From IMG/VR virus record IMGVR_UViG_3300027836_000006: a stretch of DNA of 19,652 nt; one strand, written 5' to 3'. How positions within the stretch are numbered: position 1 is the stretch's first letter; every line of letters starts with the position of its first letter. Positions 7,553 through 17,885 of the stretch are shown piece by piece. The translations under genes and the position numbers were made by a program. The notes beneath the pieces were generated by a model. It searched no databases. It worked only from the letters and a program-made list of their open reading frames with translations, and was not told the DNA's origin. The stretch is from a virus (lineage: Duplodnaviria > Heunggongvirae > Uroviricota > Caudoviricetes).

Positions 7553-7557
7553 AGTTT

Positions 7558-7616
7558 AGGATAGCAACAGCAAATTTAAAATTTCACTGTAAATGAAAAC
7601 AAAATGCTATCCTGTT
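7558..7616 (+). ncRNA. ACAGCAA-motif RNA 1 with Tyr(GUA) anticodon hairpin
   Basis: aggatagca/tgctatcct helix, acagcaa, tttca-ctGTAaa-tgaaa. Confidence 0.7.
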
Positions 7617-7623
7617 TAATTAT

Positions 7624-7698
7624 ACTGTCGTCGTCTAGTGGCTAGGACGCTACCCTTTCAAGGTGGAGAAGCGGGATCGATACCCGTCGACAGTACCA
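7624..7698 (+). tRNA. tRNA-Glu(UUC)
   Basis: cloverleaf, loop ctTTCaa, CCA. Confidence 0.88.
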
Positions 7699-7702
7699 AT
7701 AT

Positions 7703-7777
7703 ACCGCAGTAGTCCTCTGGGAGGGCAACGGATTGTCTATCCGACTTAGGCGAGTTCGATTCTCGTCTGCGGTGCCA
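7703..7777 (+). tRNA. tRNA-Asp(GUC), divergent
   Basis: loop ttGTCta, T arm, GCCA; weak D arm. Confidence 0.8.
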
Positions 7778-7785
7778 AAATTTAT

Positions 7786-7863
7786 TGTCCGAGAGCAAGC
7801 ATGGTGTAGGCGCTTCGCTGTTAACGAAGAATGAGCTAGGTTCGATCCCTAGTCGGACAGCCA
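7786..7863 (+). tRNA. tRNA-Asn(GUU)
   Basis: loop ctGTTaa, GCCA. Confidence 0.85.
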
Positions 7864-7870
7864 ATCAATT

Positions 7871-7945
7871 GGGGGAAGTAGTGGGCTACGGTATGGGCTT
7901 GCACCCTGTATGACTACAAGAGTTCGATTCTCTGGTCCTCCACCA
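7871..7945 (+). tRNA. tRNA-Ala(UGC), divergent
   Basis: loop ctTGCac, G3-U70 pair, A73, CCA. Confidence 0.75.
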
Positions 7946-7952
7946 ATTTTAT

Positions 7953-8028
7953 CTCTCTAAAGCGTTATCTGGTTGCGTACACGGTTTGGGGCCGTGTGGT
8001 CAAGGTTCGAATCCTTGTAGGGAGACCA
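7953..8028 (+). tRNA. tRNA-Pro(UGG)
   Basis: loop ttTGGgg, CCA. Confidence 0.88.
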
Positions 8029-8036
8029 ATTTTTAT

Positions 8037-8110
8037 GCCTCGGTAGTTTAATGGTAGAACTACGGTGTTACATACCGTTGATGACAGTTCGATTCTGTAA
8101 CGAGGTACCA
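8037..8110 (+). tRNA. tRNA-Val(UAC)
   Basis: loop gtTACat (unusual G32), CCA. Confidence 0.82.
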
Positions 8111-8116
8111 ATTTAT

Positions 8117-8200
8117 AGATAGCAGTGCGTGGGACGCAAGCTGGTTTGCTAAACCGGTCTACTGGAAACGGTAACAGTTCGAGTCTGTTGCTATCTGCCA
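8117..8200 (+). tRNA. tRNA-Ser(GCU)
   Basis: loop ttGCTaa, long variable arm, GCCA. Confidence 0.85.
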
Positions 8201-8205
8201 ATCAT

Positions 8206-8294
8206 GGAAGGTTAACTGGACTGGGTCCAGCTCTGTCTTGAAAACAGAAGGTGTGCGTGAGCGCATAGAGTTCGATTCTACTATCCTTCCTCCA
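8206..8294 (+). tRNA. tRNA-Ser(UGA), divergent
   Basis: loop ctTGAaa, long variable arm, bulged T stem, U73. Confidence 0.78.
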
Positions 8295-8300
8295 AATTTT

Positions 8301-8374
8301 GCTCTATTAGTATAATGGTAGTACACCGGTTTTGTAGTCCGGTAATCGTGGTTCGATTCCTCGATGGAGCACCA
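8301..8374 (+). tRNA. tRNA-Thr(UGU)
   Basis: loop ttTGTag, CCA. Confidence 0.82.
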
Positions 8375-8379
8375 AGTTA

Positions 8380-8443
8380 AGGATGTTAACAGCAAATTTT
8401 ATACACTAGACTTTTAATCTAACCAGTAAAATACATCCTGTTT
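8380..8443 (+). ncRNA. ACAGCAA-motif RNA 2 with Lys(UUU) anticodon hairpin
   Basis: aggatgt/acatcct helix, acagcaa, taga-ctTTTaa-tcta. Confidence 0.7.
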
Positions 8444-8448
8444 TATTT

Positions 8449-8524
8449 GCTACTTTAGCTGATGTGGTCATAGCGGCGGTCTGAAGAACCGTTGAAAGAG
8501 GTTCGATTCCTCTAGGTAGCACCA
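8449..8524 (+). tRNA. tRNA-Phe(GAA)
   Basis: loop ctGAAga, CCA. Confidence 0.9.
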
Positions 8525-8529
8525 AGTTT

Positions 8530-8590
8530 AGGATACTAACAGCAAACTTAAAAAATTCAATTTGAACTTGAAAAGTAAATGTATCCTGTT
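8530..8590 (+). ncRNA. ACAGCAA-motif RNA 3 with Ser(UGA)-like anticodon hairpin
   Basis: aggatac/gtatcct helix, acagcaa, ttcaa-ttTGAac-ttgaa. Confidence 0.68.
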
Positions 8591-8608
8591 TTATAGTAAG
8601 GAACTCAA

Positions 8609-8737
8609 ATGGCAAATGTCAAAAAAGGTAACCTAACAGCGCCTCCACAATGGTGGAAGCATTTGAAAGATTGGAAACGAGTGTTTTGGAAATCAGAACG
8701 CCAAGCCCAAAAGAAAAATATCAACAAAGGAGAATGA
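8609..8737 (+). CDS. small basic Trp-rich protein (42 aa)
   Basis: AAGGA RBS; MANVKKGNLTAPPQWWKHLKDWKRVFWKSERQAQKKNINKGE. Confidence 0.65.
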   Translation: MANVKKGNLTAPPQWWKHLKDWKRVFWKSERQAQKKNINKGE

Positions 8738-8902: not shown

Positions 8903-8976
8903 GGGGGTATAACTTAACGGCAAAGTAGTAGGCTTTTAACCTATTAATCAGAGTTCGATTCTCTGTGCCCCTACCA
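8903..8976 (+). tRNA. tRNA-Lys(UUU)
   Basis: loop ctTTTaa, CCA. Confidence 0.9.
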
Positions 8977-9103: not shown

Positions 9104-9179
9104 GGTAACGTAGCATAGTGGCTAATGCACCACCTTCATACGGTGTTTATCGTCGGTTCGAGTCCGACCGTTACTACCA
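9104..9179 (+). tRNA. tRNA-Met or Ile2 (CAU)
   Basis: loop ttCATac, CCA; elongator type. Confidence 0.85.
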
Positions 9180-9182
9180 AGT

Positions 9183-9399
9183 TTTGTAAGTGTCAGCAAG
9201 AGAATGTCACGCTATAAAGGTTTCTTCGAAGGACTGATATAGTAGAAGGTTAATGGGTTCAACTCCCACCCGCGGGGAACTGCGGAGGTCTGTAACGGAG
9301 ACTATACTGGACTAGTATTCCAAGTGACGTACCGAGTCCCGTCCGGACTAGTTAATTCGGGTGAATGGTTGCTATAACGATGGAGCAACTACTTACAAA
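9183..9399 (+). ncRNA. long variant CAGCAA-motif RNA 4
   Basis: tttgtaagt/acttacaaa helix followed by gtCAGCAA; internal hairpins. Confidence 0.45.
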
Positions 9400-9463
9400 T
9401 TCAACAGACCCCCGCTTTGTCAGGTTGTGCGGTGAACAACTTGACACTTTATTAAATAAAGAT

Positions 9464-9704
9464 GTTAGTAAAAGGTTTAAGGTGTAATAGTGTTTCGAAA
9501 GAGCTTTGCGAATGTCGGAAGCATTCAATAAGAGAAGTTATAGACTTCAACACTCGCTGACGGATAGAGTAAGGTATTGTTTTCAGCATTGACCTTACAG
9601 TCAGCAATGCATTCCATGTTGGGCGAGACTAAGAGAGCAGATCTGAAAAATCTGGGTCGCCAGTGCTAACGCTAAAACCAAAACTCTGCGAATCTTTTAC
9701 TAAC
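9464..9704 (+). ncRNA. orphan ~240-nt structured RNA candidate
   Basis: 11-bp closing helix gttagtaaaag/cttttactaac between tRNAs; no long ORF. Confidence 0.45.
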
Positions 9705-9839: not shown

Positions 9840-9968
9840 AGGATACTAACAGCAAATTAAAATTCGCCTTCTAAGCGAGTGGTCGTTGGTTCGAGTCCAA
9901 CATTTGATCAAGCCTAAAAAGCAGTCAAATTAGCTCAGTTGGTAGAGCACTTTAAAATGTATCCTGTT
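9840..9968 (+). ncRNA. ACAGCAA-motif RNA 5 containing a circularly permuted tRNA-Arg(UCU)
   Basis: order: anticodon arm, V, T arm, acceptor 3', linker, acceptor 5', D arm, inside aggatac/gtatcct helix. Confidence 0.8.
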
Positions 9969-11231: not shown

Positions 11232-11316
11232 GGAGTAGAAGCATCAATGGTGATGCAGTGGACTGTAAATCCGCCGCCTTCGGGCACGCCTGGTTCGATC
11301 CCAGGATACTCCACCA
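11232..11316 (+). tRNA. tRNA-Tyr(GUA)
   Basis: loop ctGTAaa, variable arm, CCA. Confidence 0.92.
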
Positions 11317-13166: not shown

Positions 13167-13282
13167 AGGATAGATGACAGCAAACCCTTAGCGGTGAAAG
13201 CCGCATCTGATGGTCTGGGGTAACCCGGACGAGCATGTTAAGCTGGATCATGTTTAAAAAATTCGGCAAAGCCTATCCTGCT
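13167..13282 (+). ncRNA. ACAGCAA-motif RNA 6 (multi-hairpin cargo)
   Basis: aggatag/ctatcct helix, acagcaa, gcgg-tgaaag-ccgc and gtctggg-gtaa-cccggac hairpins. Confidence 0.6.
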
Positions 13283-15857: not shown

Positions 15858-15911
15858 AGGATACTAACAGCAACTTTTAACTTTTATGGTAAAAAGAAAA
15901 TGTATCCTGTT
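15858..15911 (+). ncRNA. ACAGCAA-motif RNA 7 (short; possible Thr GGU hairpin)
   Basis: aggatac/gtatcct helix, acagcaa, tttt-atGGTaa-aaag. Confidence 0.65.
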
Positions 15912-15990: not shown

Positions 15991-16159
15991 AGGATCGGTA
16001 CAGCAACATTCATATTACTATGAATCGTTAGACACTGTGGTAGTAACTGGAGCAGAGTGCTTAAAAACACCGAGCGTTGAAGGGTGCTATTGAAACAAGA
16101 CTAACAAGCTCAGAGTGATGGCCTGAGTAAAATAAAAGCAGTCAACAACGATCCTGTTT
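15991..16159 (+). ncRNA. ACAGCAA-motif RNA 8 (long)
   Basis: aggatcg/cgatcct helix, acagcaa, tgttt tail. Confidence 0.65.
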
Positions 16160-16165
16160 AGTCAT

Positions 16166-16397
16166 AGGATGACTACAGCAACCTAAAATACTAACGTAAC
16201 TGCTATCGAAGGTGACCGTAGGGTACAGTAGAAATACTGTTCTAGCAATAGACGCTCAAGGGATAGATAGACTGGCAAAGCACCAGATATGATTTACATA
16301 CAGAAAAACATGTAATAGGCAACATGAATGTTGCTAGGGTCTGGGTGCTATAATTGGCCAGACCAGAAAATAAACAAATTGGCACACTCATCCTGTT
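16166..16397 (+). ncRNA. ACAGCAA-motif RNA 9 (long)
   Basis: aggatga/tcatcct helix, acagcaa, tgtt tail. Confidence 0.65.
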
Positions 16398-16405
16398 AAA
16401 GTTTT

Positions 16406-16462
16406 AGAATGTTAACAGCAACTTTTAAATTTCAAGCATATCGAAAATAAAATACATTCTGT
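16406..16462 (+). ncRNA. ACAGCAA-motif RNA 10 (short), abutting the TROVE-like RBS
   Basis: agaatgt/acattct helix, acagcaa, tttc...gaaa inner hairpin. Confidence 0.65.
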
Positions 16463-16475
16463 AAAGGTAATTAAA

Positions 16476-17885
16476 ATGAACGCATTTGTAAACGCAGTAG
16501 CAAACCAAGAAGCCCGTACCGAAAACGGTATGAAGGCACGTAAGTCAACAGCCAAGGCTACAGTTGACTTGTTTTACAAGATTGGCGCAAGCCGTGGCAA
16601 GGACATCACTCGTGATTTCACCGCGGCATACGTTGAAAACTCTGATGTAGCACTACGCATCGCACAATGGGCACGTGATGTCCGCGGTGGTGCTGGTGAA
16701 CGTCAGTTGTTCCGCGATATTCTAGTACATCTAGAAAAGCGTGACCCAGACGCCGCTTTGGCTCTTCTAAAGAAGATTCCAGAAGTTGGTCGTTGGGATG
16801 ACATCTTTGTCTTCACCAACCCAGACCTGAAGTCAGCCGCTTATACCATGTTGGGCGATGCCCTTCGTGCTAAGAACGGTTTGGCTGCAAAGTGGACTCC
16901 TCGTAAGGGTAAGATTGCGGCTGAAGTACGAGCATTCTTCGGAATGTCTCCAAAGCAGTACCGCAAGTCATTGGTAACAATGACAACCGTTGTTGAAACC
17001 CAAATGTGTGCAGGAGATTGGGATAACATCAACTTCAGTCACGTACCTTCTGTTGCTTCACGCAACTACAAGAAGGCATTCAACCGTCACACACCTGCGT
17101 TTGCAGAGTATGTGGCCAAGTTGGTAAGTGGTGATAAGACTGTTAAGGTTAACGCCAGCGCAATCTTCCCGCATGACGTGCTGAAGGGCATTGCTCACAG
17201 CTACACCAAGCTGGACAAGACAGAAACTGACCATGTGATCGCACAATGGGACGCTCTGCCAAACTACGTAGGTGACGCAAGTATCCTACCTCTAGTTGAC
17301 GTGTCTGGTTCGATGACTACATCTGTTGGTGGTAACACCGCAGTGCGTTGTTTGGATGTGGCAGTTTCACTGGGCTTGTACCTTGCGGACAAGAACAAGG
17401 GTGCGTTCAAGGACACATTCTTGACTTTCTCAAGCAAGCCAGAACTTGTTACCCTAAAGGGTAACATTGTTCAAAAGGTGGAACAAATGAGCAAGAGCAA
17501 CTGGGAAATGAGCACTAACCTACATGCCGCTATGGACAAGATCCTAAGCGTTGCGGTTAAGGGTTCAGTACCAGCTAGCGACATGCCAGCCATGTTGCTA
17601 ATCTTGTCAGACATGCAGTTCGACCAATGCGCTCGTTACGACGATAGCGCAATGGAAATGATTGAACGTAAGTTCGAAGCCGCAGGCTACAGCATGCCAC
17701 AAATTGTTTTCTGGAACCTAAACAGTTCAGATAACGTGCCTGTTAAGGCAGACAAGAGTGGTGCCGCATTGGTAAGTGGATTCAGTCCATCAATCATGAC
17801 TAGCTTGCTAGCCGCTGATTTGGATCAATTCACTCCAGAAGGCATCATGCTTAAGACAGTAATGAGTGATCGTTACGCTCTGTAA
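16476..17885 (+). CDS. TROVE/Ro60-like (DUF2828-type) protein with C-terminal vWA domain
   Basis: RDVRGGAGERQLFR, GRWDD, AAKWTPRK helical region; vWA MIDAS DVSGSM, ILSDMQFD, IVFWNL. Confidence 0.8.
   Translation: MNAFVNAVANQEARTENGMKARKSTAKATVDLFYKIGASRGKDITRDFTAAYVENSDVALRIAQWARDVRGGAGERQLFRDILVHLEKRDPDAALALLKKIPEVGRWDDIFVFTNPDLKSAAYTMLGDALRAKNGLAAKWTPRKGKIAAEVRAFFGMSPKQYRKSLVTMTTVVETQMCAGDWDNINFSHVPSVASRNYKKAFNRHTPAFAEYVAKLVSGDKTVKVNASAIFPHDVLKGIAHSYTKLDKTETDHVIAQWDALPNYVGDASILPLVDVSGSMTTSVGGNTAVRCLDVAVSLGLYLADKNKGAFKDTFLTFSSKPELVTLKGNIVQKVEQMSKSNWEMSTNLHAAMDKILSVAVKGSVPASDMPAMLLILSDMQFDQCARYDDSAMEMIERKFEAAGYSMPQIVFWNLNSSDNVPVKADKSGAALVSGFSPSIMTSLLAADLDQFTPEGIMLKTVMSDRYAL

What the first reader, a model, noticed from the sequence alone, without database searches (positions are those of the whole stretch)
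7558..8590. Short motif RNAs display isolated anticodon stem-loops (Tyr, Lys, Ser): possible anticodon-nuclease decoys
Seen: the only structure inside the short copies is a hairpin with a 7-nt loop in tRNA format: ctGTAaa (Tyr, 7587-7593, identical to the loop of tRNA-Tyr at 11232), ctTTTaa (Lys, 8411-8417, identical to tRNA-Lys at 8903) and ttTGAac (Ser, 8561-8567). Weaker cases are atGGTaa (15886-15892) and agCATat (16435-16441). Known: anticodon nucleases target such loops (PrrC and PARIS AriB on tRNA-Lys; colicin E5 and retron PtuAB on tRNA-Tyr). Inference: unchargeable anticodon mimics that titrate, sense or inhibit host tRNases or modification enzymes, possibly stabilised by the Ro60-like protein.
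Basis: partly seen in the sequence, partly recalled or inferred. Interest (0 to 1): 0.88.

Follow-up and report, generated by a model that had tools for sequence, protein, structure and literature searches.

The report
Anticodon-arm mimics on phage Ro-like RNAs
Two, perhaps three, small RNAs between the tRNA genes of this large phage join a constant docking handle, probably for the phage's Ro60-like protein, to a selectively maintained copy of a tRNA anticodon stem-loop; a role as bait for tRNA-cutting host defences is plausible but untested.

Summary
The Tyr-like loop (7587-7593) and the Lys-like loop (8411-8417) are identical to the loops of the phage's own tRNA-Tyr and tRNA-Lys(UUU).

Each hairpin is the tip of a 51-60 nt RNA module. 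The module has a covarying 7-bp closing helix, ACAGCAA two bases inside it, and GUU after it. There are nine such modules in the window. The last one sits in the leader of a gene whose predicted fold is Ro60.

I collected 123 distinct homologous short modules. Of these, 42 carry a stem of at least 4 bp with a 7-nt loop of the form C-U-NNN-A-A, against 1.1 expected from shuffles. The stems covary. The middle triplet changes fastest, is never A at position 34, and always matches a real anticodon loop of these phages.

Copies 1 and 2 are therefore supported. Copy 3 (Ser) has no orthologue and folds better another way. The two "weaker cases" belong to other loop classes (UGG; GCAUA) and are not anticodon mimics.

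The link to the Ro60-like protein is supported by fold and by co-occurrence in distant phages. The decoy function is untested.

The scan has already found this RNA family and such mimics on other DNA. My literature searches found no published description.

The parts
7558..7616 (+). Short module 1. Closing helix 7558-7564 with 7607-7613, ACAGCAA 7567-7573, anticodon-arm mimic 7582-7598 (stem TTTCA/TGAAA, loop CTGTAAA 7587-7593, Tyr GUA format), tail GTT. It starts 6 nt after the CCA of tRNA-Ile(GAU).
   Evidence: loop identical to tRNA-Tyr; orthologues keep the stem and the 7-nt loop length, with loops CTTTTAA, ACGTTAA, ATGTTTA
8380..8442 (+). Short module 2. Closing helix 8380-8386 with 8433-8439, ACAGCAA 8389-8395, middle helix about 8397-8404 with 8426-8432, anticodon-arm mimic 8407-8421 (stem TAGA/TCTA, loop CTTTTAA 8411-8417, Lys UUU format). 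It follows tRNA-Thr(UGU).
   Evidence: all eight close orthologues have CTTTTAA or CTTGTAA on four covarying stems
8530..8590 (+). Short module 3. Closing helix 8530-8536 with 8581-8587, ACAGCAA 8539-8545, candidate hairpin 8556-8572 (TTCAA/TTGAA, loop TTTGAAC 8561-8567, Ser UGA-like). Ambiguous: the best fold uses a 3-nt loop instead, and the 3' half overlaps a promoter-like site 8568-8597 in front of a 42-codon ORF (8609-8737).
   Evidence: no orthologue among 196 loci; best Rfam RF01414 score of the copies, 24.1 bits
9840..9968 (+). Long module. Same handle, carrying an anticodon arm (9862-9880, loop CTTCTAA, Arg UCU), a T arm (9885-9901), a closed acceptor hairpin and a D arm (9931-9949). 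It shows that the hairpin position of the short modules corresponds to the anticodon arm of a rearranged tRNA.
   Evidence: full-length sub-threshold YrlA match of 35.1 bits against a cut-off of 69
15858..15911 (+). Short module 4. Same handle; the tip holds ATGGTAA. It is not an anticodon mimic but a member of a UGG-loop class.
16406..16463 (+). Short module 5. Variant handle AGAATGT/ACATTCT, 9-nt loop with conserved GCATA. It ends 15 nt before the start codon of the Ro60-like gene. Not an anticodon mimic.
16476..17885 (+). Gene for the Ro60-like protein (Pfam DUF2828 + DUF7788, 469 aa), the presumed protein partner of the handle.
6533..6745 (+). Three consensus sigma-70-type promoters in front of the tRNA array. 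No terminator-like site lies at modules 1-3, so they are probably co-transcribed with the tRNAs.

Best explanation
Modules 1 and 2 (module 3 less surely) are the smallest members of a Y-RNA-like family.

What the sequence and the comparisons show:
- Each RNA has a constant handle: a covarying closing helix, single-stranded ACAGCAA, and a 3' G-U tail.
- Each has a variable tip.
- In these copies the tip is an anticodon-stem-loop look-alike: a 4-5 bp A/U-rich stem that covaries, and a 7-nt loop C32-U33-NNN-A37-A38 whose triplet comes from real anticodons and turns over quickly between related phages.

What is inferred:
- The RNAs are transcribed with the tRNA array from the promoters at 6533-6745 and are released by the enzymes that trim the flanking tRNAs.
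- The handle docks on the phage's Ro60-like protein (16476-17885).
- The particle presents the anticodon-loop copy to a protein that reads anticodon loops.

The partner I think most likely is a host anticodon-loop nuclease, with the RNA acting as bait or competitive inhibitor (about 0.3 on its own). An anticodon-loop modification or repair enzyme is the next option.
For: Family and handle:
- Nine copies in the window have different but complementary helix sequences.
- There are 261 distinct copies in 160 related loci.
- The same handle lies beside the homologous gene in Synechococcus, Cronobacter, Vibrio, Escherichia (Felix O1-type), Listeria, Mycobacterium, Campylobacter, Staphylococcus and Enterococcus phages.

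Protein:
- The model has pLDDT 91.9.
- The top 13 PDB matches are all Ro60/TROVE, E 2e-8, TM 0.55-0.62.
- Ro60 also tops the Swiss-Prot models.

Anticodon format:
- 42 of 123 cargos are strict against 1.1 in shuffles; 64 against 9.9 for U33+R37.
- There are at least 13 different stems and 12 triplets.
- On 53 17-mers chosen by loop motif alone, 80.6% of cells pair against 52.2% in shuffles and 47.5-54.8% when the partner is slid by one. The covariation score is 0.69 against 0.21, and all five pairs change on both sides.
- A is 0 of 27 at position 34 and 1 of 27 at position 35, although the cargo is 46% A. All 12 displayed loops occur in real tRNAs of these phages.
- The loop is identical to a co-resident tRNA's loop in 35 of 45 cases.
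- The long copy at 9840 has a full anticodon arm in the same position.

Context:
- There is no terminator at the modules, and promoters lie upstream.
- RNA ligase or RtcB genes sit near the homologous gene in Listeria phage A511 and Salmonella phage Munch.
- AriB recognises the tRNA-Lys anticodon stem-loop (PMC11464382).
- Phage tRNAs are proposed to escape anticodon nucleases by loop changes (PMC10264068).
- The Ro60-like gp130 of phage Bas63 counters the Ppl defence (PMC11482910).
Against:
- The stems are weak (G+C 0.24 against 0.60 in real anticodon stems). Copy 1's hairpin has only about 0.5 pair probability even with the handle fixed.
- In distant phages only 1 of about 14 short copies shows the strict format, so display of an anticodon loop is not a general property of the family.
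- Some orthologues of copy 1 lack U33 or R37 (ACGTTAA, ATGTTTA).
- Many anticodon nucleases need the whole tRNA or its modifications (general knowledge).
- A stoichiometric decoy would have to be abundant.
- Fast turnover of the triplet could mean absence of constraint rather than an arms race.
Confidence: 0.5

Rival explanations
1. The handle is the functional part. The tip is only a spacer hairpin inherited from a tRNA-derived ancestor such as the rearranged tRNA at 9840. Its anticodon-loop format persists because a C-U...A-A loop makes a well-behaved U-turn cap, not because any protein reads it as an anticodon.
For: - Short copies of distant phages have other tips.
- Other classes in this same clade carry UGG or GCAUA loops.
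- The triplet varies freely.
- The stems are A/U-rich and marginally stable.
Against: - C32, U33, A37 and A38 are kept on at least 13 different covarying stems.
- A is avoided at positions 34 and 35 in cargo that is 46% A.
- Every displayed loop is a real anticodon loop of these phages, and 78% are identical to the co-resident tRNA's. A mere cap would not need this.
Confidence: 0.25
2. The particle is a tether rather than a decoy. As Y RNA tethers Ro60 to PNPase, the anticodon-arm tip recruits a tRNA repair or modification enzyme (ligase, kinase/phosphatase, or an enzyme for position 34 or 37) to the Ro60-like ring. The ring would hold damaged tRNAs.
For: - The fold is Ro60-like.
- The long copy is a distant YrlA-like RNA.
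- RtcB and RNA ligase genes lie near the homologous gene in A511 and Munch.
- YrlA is a substrate of tRNA enzymes (PMC4201824).
- Every displayed triplet ends in U, A or C and is followed by A37, the context of the t6A and i6A enzymes (general knowledge).
Against: - I saw no ligase, kinase or RtcB gene in this window (one search covers only the ten largest ORFs).
- Repair enzymes act on broken loops, not intact ones.
- A37 was part of my selection criterion, so the modification-context argument is partly circular.
Confidence: 0.13
3. The loop is a U-turn (YUNR) recognition loop for RNA-RNA pairing, as in antisense RNAs. It kisses a complementary sequence in an mRNA or another RNA.
For: The Y-U-N-R format is shared by anticodon loops and antisense recognition loops (general knowledge). 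The variable triplet could set target specificity.
Against: Three to five A/U-rich bases give little specificity. I found no complementary partner. The loops match real anticodon loops along all seven positions.
Confidence: 0.07
4. These are DNA-level or transcription signals (terminators, promoters, recombination sites) rather than stable RNAs.
For: They lie in intergenic spacers and end in G-T-T-T. Module 3 overlaps a promoter-like site.
Against: - No terminator-like call falls at any module.
- The helix covaries while ACAGCAA stays fixed on one strand only.
- They always lie on the strand of the tRNAs and of the Ro60-like gene.
Confidence: 0.03

Closest known systems
Bacterial and phage Y RNAs of the YrlA type with Ro60/Rsr (Rfam RF02553; Chen et al. 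2014, PMC4201824)
   Same: Both are small RNAs encoded beside a Ro60-fold protein on the same strand. Both join a closing helix that is the presumed protein site to a module that imitates tRNA. The long copy at 9840 matches the YrlA model end to end (35.1 bits).
   Different: - The protein is DUF2828/DUF7788, not a Pfam TROVE protein, with 13-16% identity to Ro60.
- The handle motif is ACAGCAA, not GNCGAA.
- YrlA imitates the acceptor, T and D arms and puts the Ro helix in place of the anticodon arm. The short copies here do the opposite and keep only an anticodon arm.
- There are nine copies per genome, spread through a tRNA array.
- No copy reaches the Rfam cut-off.
Class I RNAs of Dictyostelium (Rfam RF01414; Kjellin et al. 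2021, PMC7919456)
   Same: The architecture and size are the same: a 6-7 bp terminal helix starting at G, then C-U-(U/A)-ACAGCAA, a variable A/U-rich middle, and a 3' strand followed by C-U-G-U, in 51-60 nt. Four of the five short copies give end-to-end matches (18.2-24.1 bits).
   Different: The scores are below the cut-off of 41.5. Class I RNAs are eukaryotic, have their own promoter element, and were reported as restricted to dictyostelids. The one protein shown to bind them directly is an RRM protein. Nothing is known of anticodon-like tips there. Whether the likeness is homology or convergence is open.
Phage tRNAs that neutralise tRNA-cutting defences (T5 tRNA-Lys against PARIS, PMC11464382; tRNA-Tyr against Retron-Eco7, PMC11555353; anticodon-loop variants, PMC10264068)
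   Same: Both are encoded in a phage tRNA cluster. The anticodon loops concerned are those of Lys(UUU) and Tyr(GUA), among others.
   Different: Those are complete, chargeable tRNAs that replace the cut host tRNA. The RNAs here have no acceptor, D or T arm, so they cannot be charged. They could only act by binding.

Membership tests
ACAGCAA-handle RNAs linked to DUF2828 Ro60-like genes (no published description found; seen repeatedly by this scan) | Closing helix of 7-9 bp whose sequence differs between copies but stays complementary | tested here: met
   The window's helices are AGGATAG/CTATCCT, AGGATGT/ACATCCT and AGGATAC/GTATCCT. Other phages use unrelated helices.
ACAGCAA-handle RNAs linked to DUF2828 Ro60-like genes (no published description found; seen repeatedly by this scan) | ACAGCAA 1-3 nt after the 5' strand of the helix, and G(U) directly after the 3' strand | tested here: met
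   Present in all three copies. The pattern has 8 matches with 0-2 mismatches on the + strand.
ACAGCAA-handle RNAs linked to DUF2828 Ro60-like genes (no published description found; seen repeatedly by this scan) | Same strand as, and near, a DUF2828/DUF7788 gene, usually within a tRNA cluster | tested here: met
   The gene is at 16476-17885 on the + strand. Modules 1-3 lie 8-9 kb upstream in the same tRNA array, and modules 4-5 within 620 nt.
tRNA anticodon arm (as a mimic, not as a tRNA) | 5-bp stem closing a 7-nt loop | tested here: met
   Copy 1 has 5 bp, copy 2 has 4 bp plus a C-A pair, copy 3 has 5 bp but in a disfavoured fold. On loop-selected 17-mers, 31 of 52 have at least 4 consecutive pairs, and the pairs covary.
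tRNA anticodon arm (as a mimic, not as a tRNA) | Pyrimidine 32, U33, purine 37, and a non-Watson-Crick 32/38 pair | tested here: met
   The loops are CU...AA, CU...AA and UU...AC. The strict form occurs in 42 of 123 homologous cargos against 1.1 in shuffles. The window's real tRNAs have CU...AA in 17 of 37.
tRNA anticodon arm (as a mimic, not as a tRNA) | Positions 34-36 form a triplet used by real tRNAs | tested here: met
   GUA, UUU and UGA here. All 12 loops displayed by homologues occur in real tRNAs of these phages, and A34 is absent.
tRNA (complete gene) | Acceptor, D and T arms; recognised by tRNA models | tested here: not met
   Neither ARAGORN nor the Rfam tRNA model calls 7553-7623, 8375-8448 or 8525-8600.
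YrlA Y RNA (RF02553) | Rfam gathering score of 69 bits; tRNA-like acceptor, T and D domain; GNCGAA motif in the Ro helix | tested here: not met
   The short copies give no YrlA match. Only the long copy at 9840 scores, at 35.1 bits. The handle has ACAGCAA instead of GNCGAA.
Dictyostelium Class I RNA (RF01414) | Terminal 6-bp helix from a 5' G, an 11-nt motif ending in ACAGCAA, a 3' CUGU, and a length of 42-65 nt | tested here: met
   The alignment shows these features. The features themselves are taken from PMC7919456.
Dictyostelium Class I RNA (RF01414) | Rfam gathering score of 41.5 bits | tested here: not met
   The copies score 18.2-24.1 bits.
Anticodon-nuclease decoy (functional class) | Bound or cut by an anticodon nuclease, and protects tRNA or rescues infection | not testable with these tools
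   No assay is available. The host and its defences are unknown, as no genome is held for the window.
Ro60 (TROVE + vWA ring) | Whole-length structural match to solved Ro60 | tested here: met
   The top 13 PDB hits are Ro60/TROVE over about 500 aligned columns.
Ro60 (TROVE + vWA ring) | Sequence membership in Pfam TROVE | tested here: not met
   Pfam gives DUF2828 and DUF7788 only. phmmer against PDB sequences finds nothing.

The most novel reading that the evidence does not exclude
The handle is a display platform. Large phages use it to show interchangeable anticodon-loop copies (UUU, UGU, GUA, UUC, GCU, GCA and others) on a Ro60-like particle. The triplet is swapped over short evolutionary distances to match whichever tRNA-cutting defence the current hosts deploy. 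That would be an RNA-based, fast-evolving anti-defence repertoire working next to the phage's replacement tRNAs. The same handle-protein pair may be ancestral to the unexplained Class I RNAs of social amoebae.
Probability: 0.2. Interest if true: 0.88.

Novelty: new variant of a known kind. Interest (0 to 1): 0.66.

Why it matters
Phage tRNA clusters are now read as counter-measures to tRNA-cutting immunity, but only through whole replacement tRNAs. If this finding holds, it adds a second layer: unchargeable RNAs that copy just the part those nucleases read, carried on a Ro60-like particle.

That would give a function to three things. The first is a protein family found in more than 700 sequenced phages, one member of which is reported to counter a defence system (PMC11482910). 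The second is the many unannotated spacers in phage tRNA arrays. The third, possibly, is the Y-RNA principle outside the TROVE family.

It is directly testable with E. coli systems (PARIS, PrrC, Retron-Eco7, colicins E5 and D) and with cultured phages that carry the handle.

Tried and rejected
- RNAalifold on MAFFT alignments of the two orthologue groups predicted only the closing helix. The inner stems are too weak and the cargo alignments too ragged, so I used loop-anchored 17-mers instead.
- Single-linkage clustering of cargos at 25% edit distance lumped most A/U-rich cargos together. It was used only for the list of stems.
- Terminator reading: rejected, because no terminator-like site falls at any module.
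- Reading atGGTaa as Thr GGU and agCATat as Met CAU: rejected.
- I tested whether the mimic loops differ from the phage's own tRNA loops, as a "sensitive decoy beside resistant tRNA" model might predict. They are mostly identical, which does not discriminate.
- No tRNA species consistently precedes a given mimic.
- Tools that gave nothing: no whole genome is held for the window; phmmer against PDB sequences found nothing; a megablast of the array against phage records found only single tRNAs.
- The AlphaFold cluster search hides organisms, so I could not check whether Dictyostelium has the protein.
- Complex prediction was not used, because the question concerns RNA and protein.
Full report
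**Setting.** The window holds at least 37 tRNA genes on the + strand between 7479 and 15796, plus one at 957. Consensus promoters lie at 6533-6745 and at several internal sites. After the array comes a 469-aa ORF (16476-17885) that Pfam assigns to DUF2828 and DUF7788. No whole genome is held for the window. The protein has relatives of 87-96% identity on viral contigs of up to 356 kb and homologues in 711 phage records, so this is a large phage.

**The observation.** CTGTAAA (7587-7593) equals the anticodon loop of the tRNA-Tyr at 11232-11313. CTTTTAA (8411-8417) equals that of tRNA-Lys(UUU) at 8903. TTTGAAC (8561-8567) differs from tRNA-Ser(UGA), CTTGAAA, at positions 32 and 38.

**What the hairpins belong to.** Each hairpin is the tip of a module with three constant features:
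- a 7-bp closing helix whose sequence differs between copies but stays complementary;
- ACAGCAA two bases after the 5' strand;
- GTT(T) after the 3' strand.

A pattern search and a script find nine such modules in the window:
- five short ones (51-60 nt): 7558, 8380, 8530, 15858, 16406;
- four long ones: 9840, 13167, 15991, 16166.

Modules 1-3 start six bases after the CCA of tRNA-Ile, tRNA-Thr and tRNA-Phe. No terminator-like site coincides with them. They are therefore probably made as part of the tRNA precursor.

The long module at 9840 carries, in this order, an anticodon arm (loop CTTCTAA), a T arm, a closed acceptor hairpin and a D arm. It matches the Rfam YrlA model end to end at 35.1 bits, below the cut-off of 69. 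The hairpin of the short modules sits where the anticodon arm of this rearranged tRNA sits.

**The protein.** An AlphaFold model built on 85 diverse relatives has mean pLDDT 91.9. Its 13 best PDB matches are all Ro60/TROVE structures over the whole length (E 2e-8, TM 0.55-0.62, 13-16% identity). They include the Ro60 of Thermus phage phiLo. Ro60 proteins also lead the Swiss-Prot models. Sequence search against PDB chains finds nothing. "Ro60-like" is thus a statement about fold.

**Is the RNA tied to the protein?** I fetched the neighbourhood of the homologous gene (25-48% identity) in 11 distant phages and scanned for a helix plus CAGCAA. The handle lies on the gene's strand, directly beside the gene or within a few kb, in:
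- Synechococcus phage BUCT-ZZ01 (two copies just upstream);
- Cronobacter phage S13;
- Vibrio phage nt-1;
- Escherichia phage VpaE1 (four copies between the tRNAs downstream);
- Listeria phage A511 (three copies just upstream);
- Mycobacterium phage LeBron (at least two copies just downstream);
- Campylobacter phage PC14;
- Staphylococcus phage 6ec (three copies downstream);
- Enterococcus phage EFDG1 (two copies).

Salmonella phage Munch gave none with my criteria, and Sinorhizobium phage phiM19 only one doubtful long candidate. The helices differ completely between phages while ACAGCAA stays. The most economical reading is that the handle is the protein's docking site, as the conserved helix of Y RNAs is for Ro60. 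No binding has been shown.

**A second resemblance.** Before consulting earlier notes I ran Rfam at relaxed thresholds. Four of the five short copies gave end-to-end matches to RF01414, the Class I RNAs of Dictyostelium (18.2-24.1 bits against a cut-off of 41.5). The alignment shows the same plan: a terminal helix from a 5' G, C-U-(U/A)-ACAGCAA, an A/U-rich variable middle, and a 3' strand followed by CUG(U). These are the features that Kjellin et al. list as defining (PMC7919456). This is a likeness of architecture below the family threshold. I could not test the protein side.

**Test of the anticodon format.**
- From 196 related loci a script extracted 261 distinct modules, 126 of them short.
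- Among 123 distinct short cargos, 88 have a stem of at least 4 bp with a 7-nt loop (shuffles: 48).
- 64 of these have U at loop position 2 and a purine at position 6 (shuffles: 9.9 +/- 2.9).
- 42 have C-U-NNN-A-A (shuffles: 1.1 +/- 0.95, maximum 4).

Relatedness inflates such counts, so independent features matter more:
- The strict loop sits on at least 13 different stems and holds 12 triplets: UUU, UGU, GUA, UUC, GCU, GCA, UCU, UGA, CGA, CUU, CGU, CAU.
- I took every distinct 17-mer centred on CTNNNA(A/C) in short cargos, without asking for pairing. Flanking pairs are bimodal: 31 of 52 have at least 4 consecutive pairs and 16 have none.
- On that alignment 80.6% of cells pair, against 52.2 +/- 2.3% in shuffles and 47.5-54.8% when the partner is slid by one. 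All five pairs show changes on both sides. The covariation score is 0.69 against 0.21.
- The cargo is 46% A, yet A occurs 0 times in 27 at position 34 and once at position 35.
- All 12 displayed seven-mers occur as anticodon loops of real tRNAs in these loci, ten of them at least 14 times.
- Where the same locus holds a tRNA with that anticodon, its loop is identical in 35 of 45 cases. It differs only at position 32 in nine of the other ten.
- The stems are not copied: G+C is 0.24 against 0.60.

**Copy by copy.**
- *Copy 2.* There are eight close orthologues, all CTTTTAA or CTTGTAA, on four covarying stems. Its own hairpin is predicted with probability 0.9-0.99.
- *Copy 1.* Orthologues keep the stem TTTCA/TGAAA and the 7-nt length. 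The loops are CTTTTAA (three), ACGTTAA and ATGTTTA, so the format is mostly but not always kept. Pair probability is about 0.5.
- *Copy 3.* None of the fetched loci holds an orthologue. The favoured fold uses a 3-nt loop. Its 3' half overlaps a promoter-like site in front of a small ORF.
- *Copy 4.* Orthologue loops vary from 5 to 7 nt and share GG.
- *Copy 5.* The loop is 9 nt with conserved GCATA.

TGG and GCATA are each enriched in hairpin loops over shuffles (19 against 4.8; 20 against 0.3). The short modules thus fall into at least three tip classes, and only one of them is anticodon-like. In distant phages only the BUCT-ZZ01 short copy (CTTTTAC on 6 bp) shows the format, out of about 14 short copies.

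**Turnover of the triplet.** Within groups that share a stem, and so share recent ancestry, most differences fall in positions 34-36. Examples are UUU/UGU, GUA/UUU, UGA/GUA/CGA and GCA/CCA. Fewer fall in positions 32, 33, 37 and 38, and fewest in the stem. This fits either diversifying selection on the displayed triplet or mere lack of constraint there. The avoidance of A and the match to real anticodons argue against pure drift.

**Mechanism.**
- *Shown:* the anatomy, the conservation and the genetic linkage.
- *Inferred:* co-transcription with the tRNAs and release by tRNA-processing enzymes; docking of the handle on the Ro60-like protein; presentation of the loop to a protein that reads anticodon loops.

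Which protein that is remains open. The decoy idea fits the setting. AriB recognises the anticodon stem-loop of tRNA-Lys (PMC11464382). Phage tRNAs are thought to escape anticodon nucleases through loop changes (PMC10264068). The Ro60-like gp130 of phage Bas63 counters the Ppl defence (PMC11482910). UUU, the commonest display, is the anticodon of the tRNA hit by PrrC (PMC10264068) and PARIS (PMC11464382). None of this is a test. A tether for repair or modification enzymes is the main functional rival, and a structurally convenient relic is the main null.

**Comparison with what is known.** The closest known system is Ro60 with YrlA-type Y RNAs. These RNAs work like it in plan, but they are not members: the protein family, the handle motif and the tRNA part imitated all differ, and the scores are below threshold. 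My searches of the held literature found no description of ACAGCAA-handle RNAs or of anticodon-arm mimics on such RNAs.

The scan itself has noted the family, its likeness to Class I RNAs and anticodon-loop mimics many times on other DNA.
- a shuffle-controlled and covariation-controlled test on 123 homologous cargos;
- the composition signature at positions 34 and 35;
- the loop identity with co-resident tRNAs;
- the separation of the two non-anticodon tip classes.

Noticed in passing
window 16406-16475: Short module 5 has a variant handle (AGAATGT/ACATTCT) and ends 15 nt before the ATG of the Ro60-like gene, just ahead of its ribosome-binding site. Its 9-nt loop with GCATA is conserved in 25 close relatives. 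The protein might bind its own leader (autoregulation).
   Followed up: partly
window 15881-15896; L202 9461-9514: The tip of module 4 (ATGGTA/ATGGTAA) belongs to a class of loops with UGG, enriched 19 against 4.8 in shuffles. Mycobacterium phage LeBron has the same ATGGTAA loop on TTTCA/TGAAA. The loop resembles a tRNA D loop (AAUGGUA in this phage's tRNAs) or a CCA-pairing UGGU more than an anticodon loop.
   Followed up: partly
window 8568-8737: A promoter-like site (TTGAAA, 18 nt, TATAGT) overlaps the 3' half of module 3. It is followed by AAGGA and a 42-codon ORF (8609-8737) for a small basic Trp-rich peptide.
   Followed up: no
window 13167-13279, 15991-16155, 16166-16394: Three long modules with the same handle carry G+C-rich structured cargo that is not obviously tRNA-like. 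Their nature is unknown.
   Followed up: no
window 9183-9700: After tRNA-Met (9104-9179) the usual AGTTT junction leads to a variant with only CAGCAA, followed by about 500 nt without a listed + strand ORF of 50 aa or more. The stretch contains a T-arm-like GGGTTCAACTCCCAC.
   Followed up: no
window 957-1030 and 8206-8290: ARAGORN calls a tRNA with anticodon CUA (amber suppressor type). Rfam places a tRNA-Sec-like RNA at 8206-8290 just at its gathering score (47.6 against 47).
   Followed up: no
L201 10851-14563; L204 6476-7684: In Listeria phage A511 the homologous Ro60-like gene lies 1.3-4 kb upstream of genes annotated as tRNA splicing ligase (RtcB), tRNA amidotransferase and RNA ligase. 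In Salmonella phage Munch an RNA ligase gene lies directly upstream. This places the protein family in an RNA-repair setting.
   Followed up: no
window 1-6500: The left part carries bacterial-type genes (Gcw_chp outer-membrane family, AhpC/TSA peroxiredoxin, CMD-family protein, PfkB-like kinase fragment) next to the phage tRNA array. They may be auxiliary metabolic genes.
   Followed up: no
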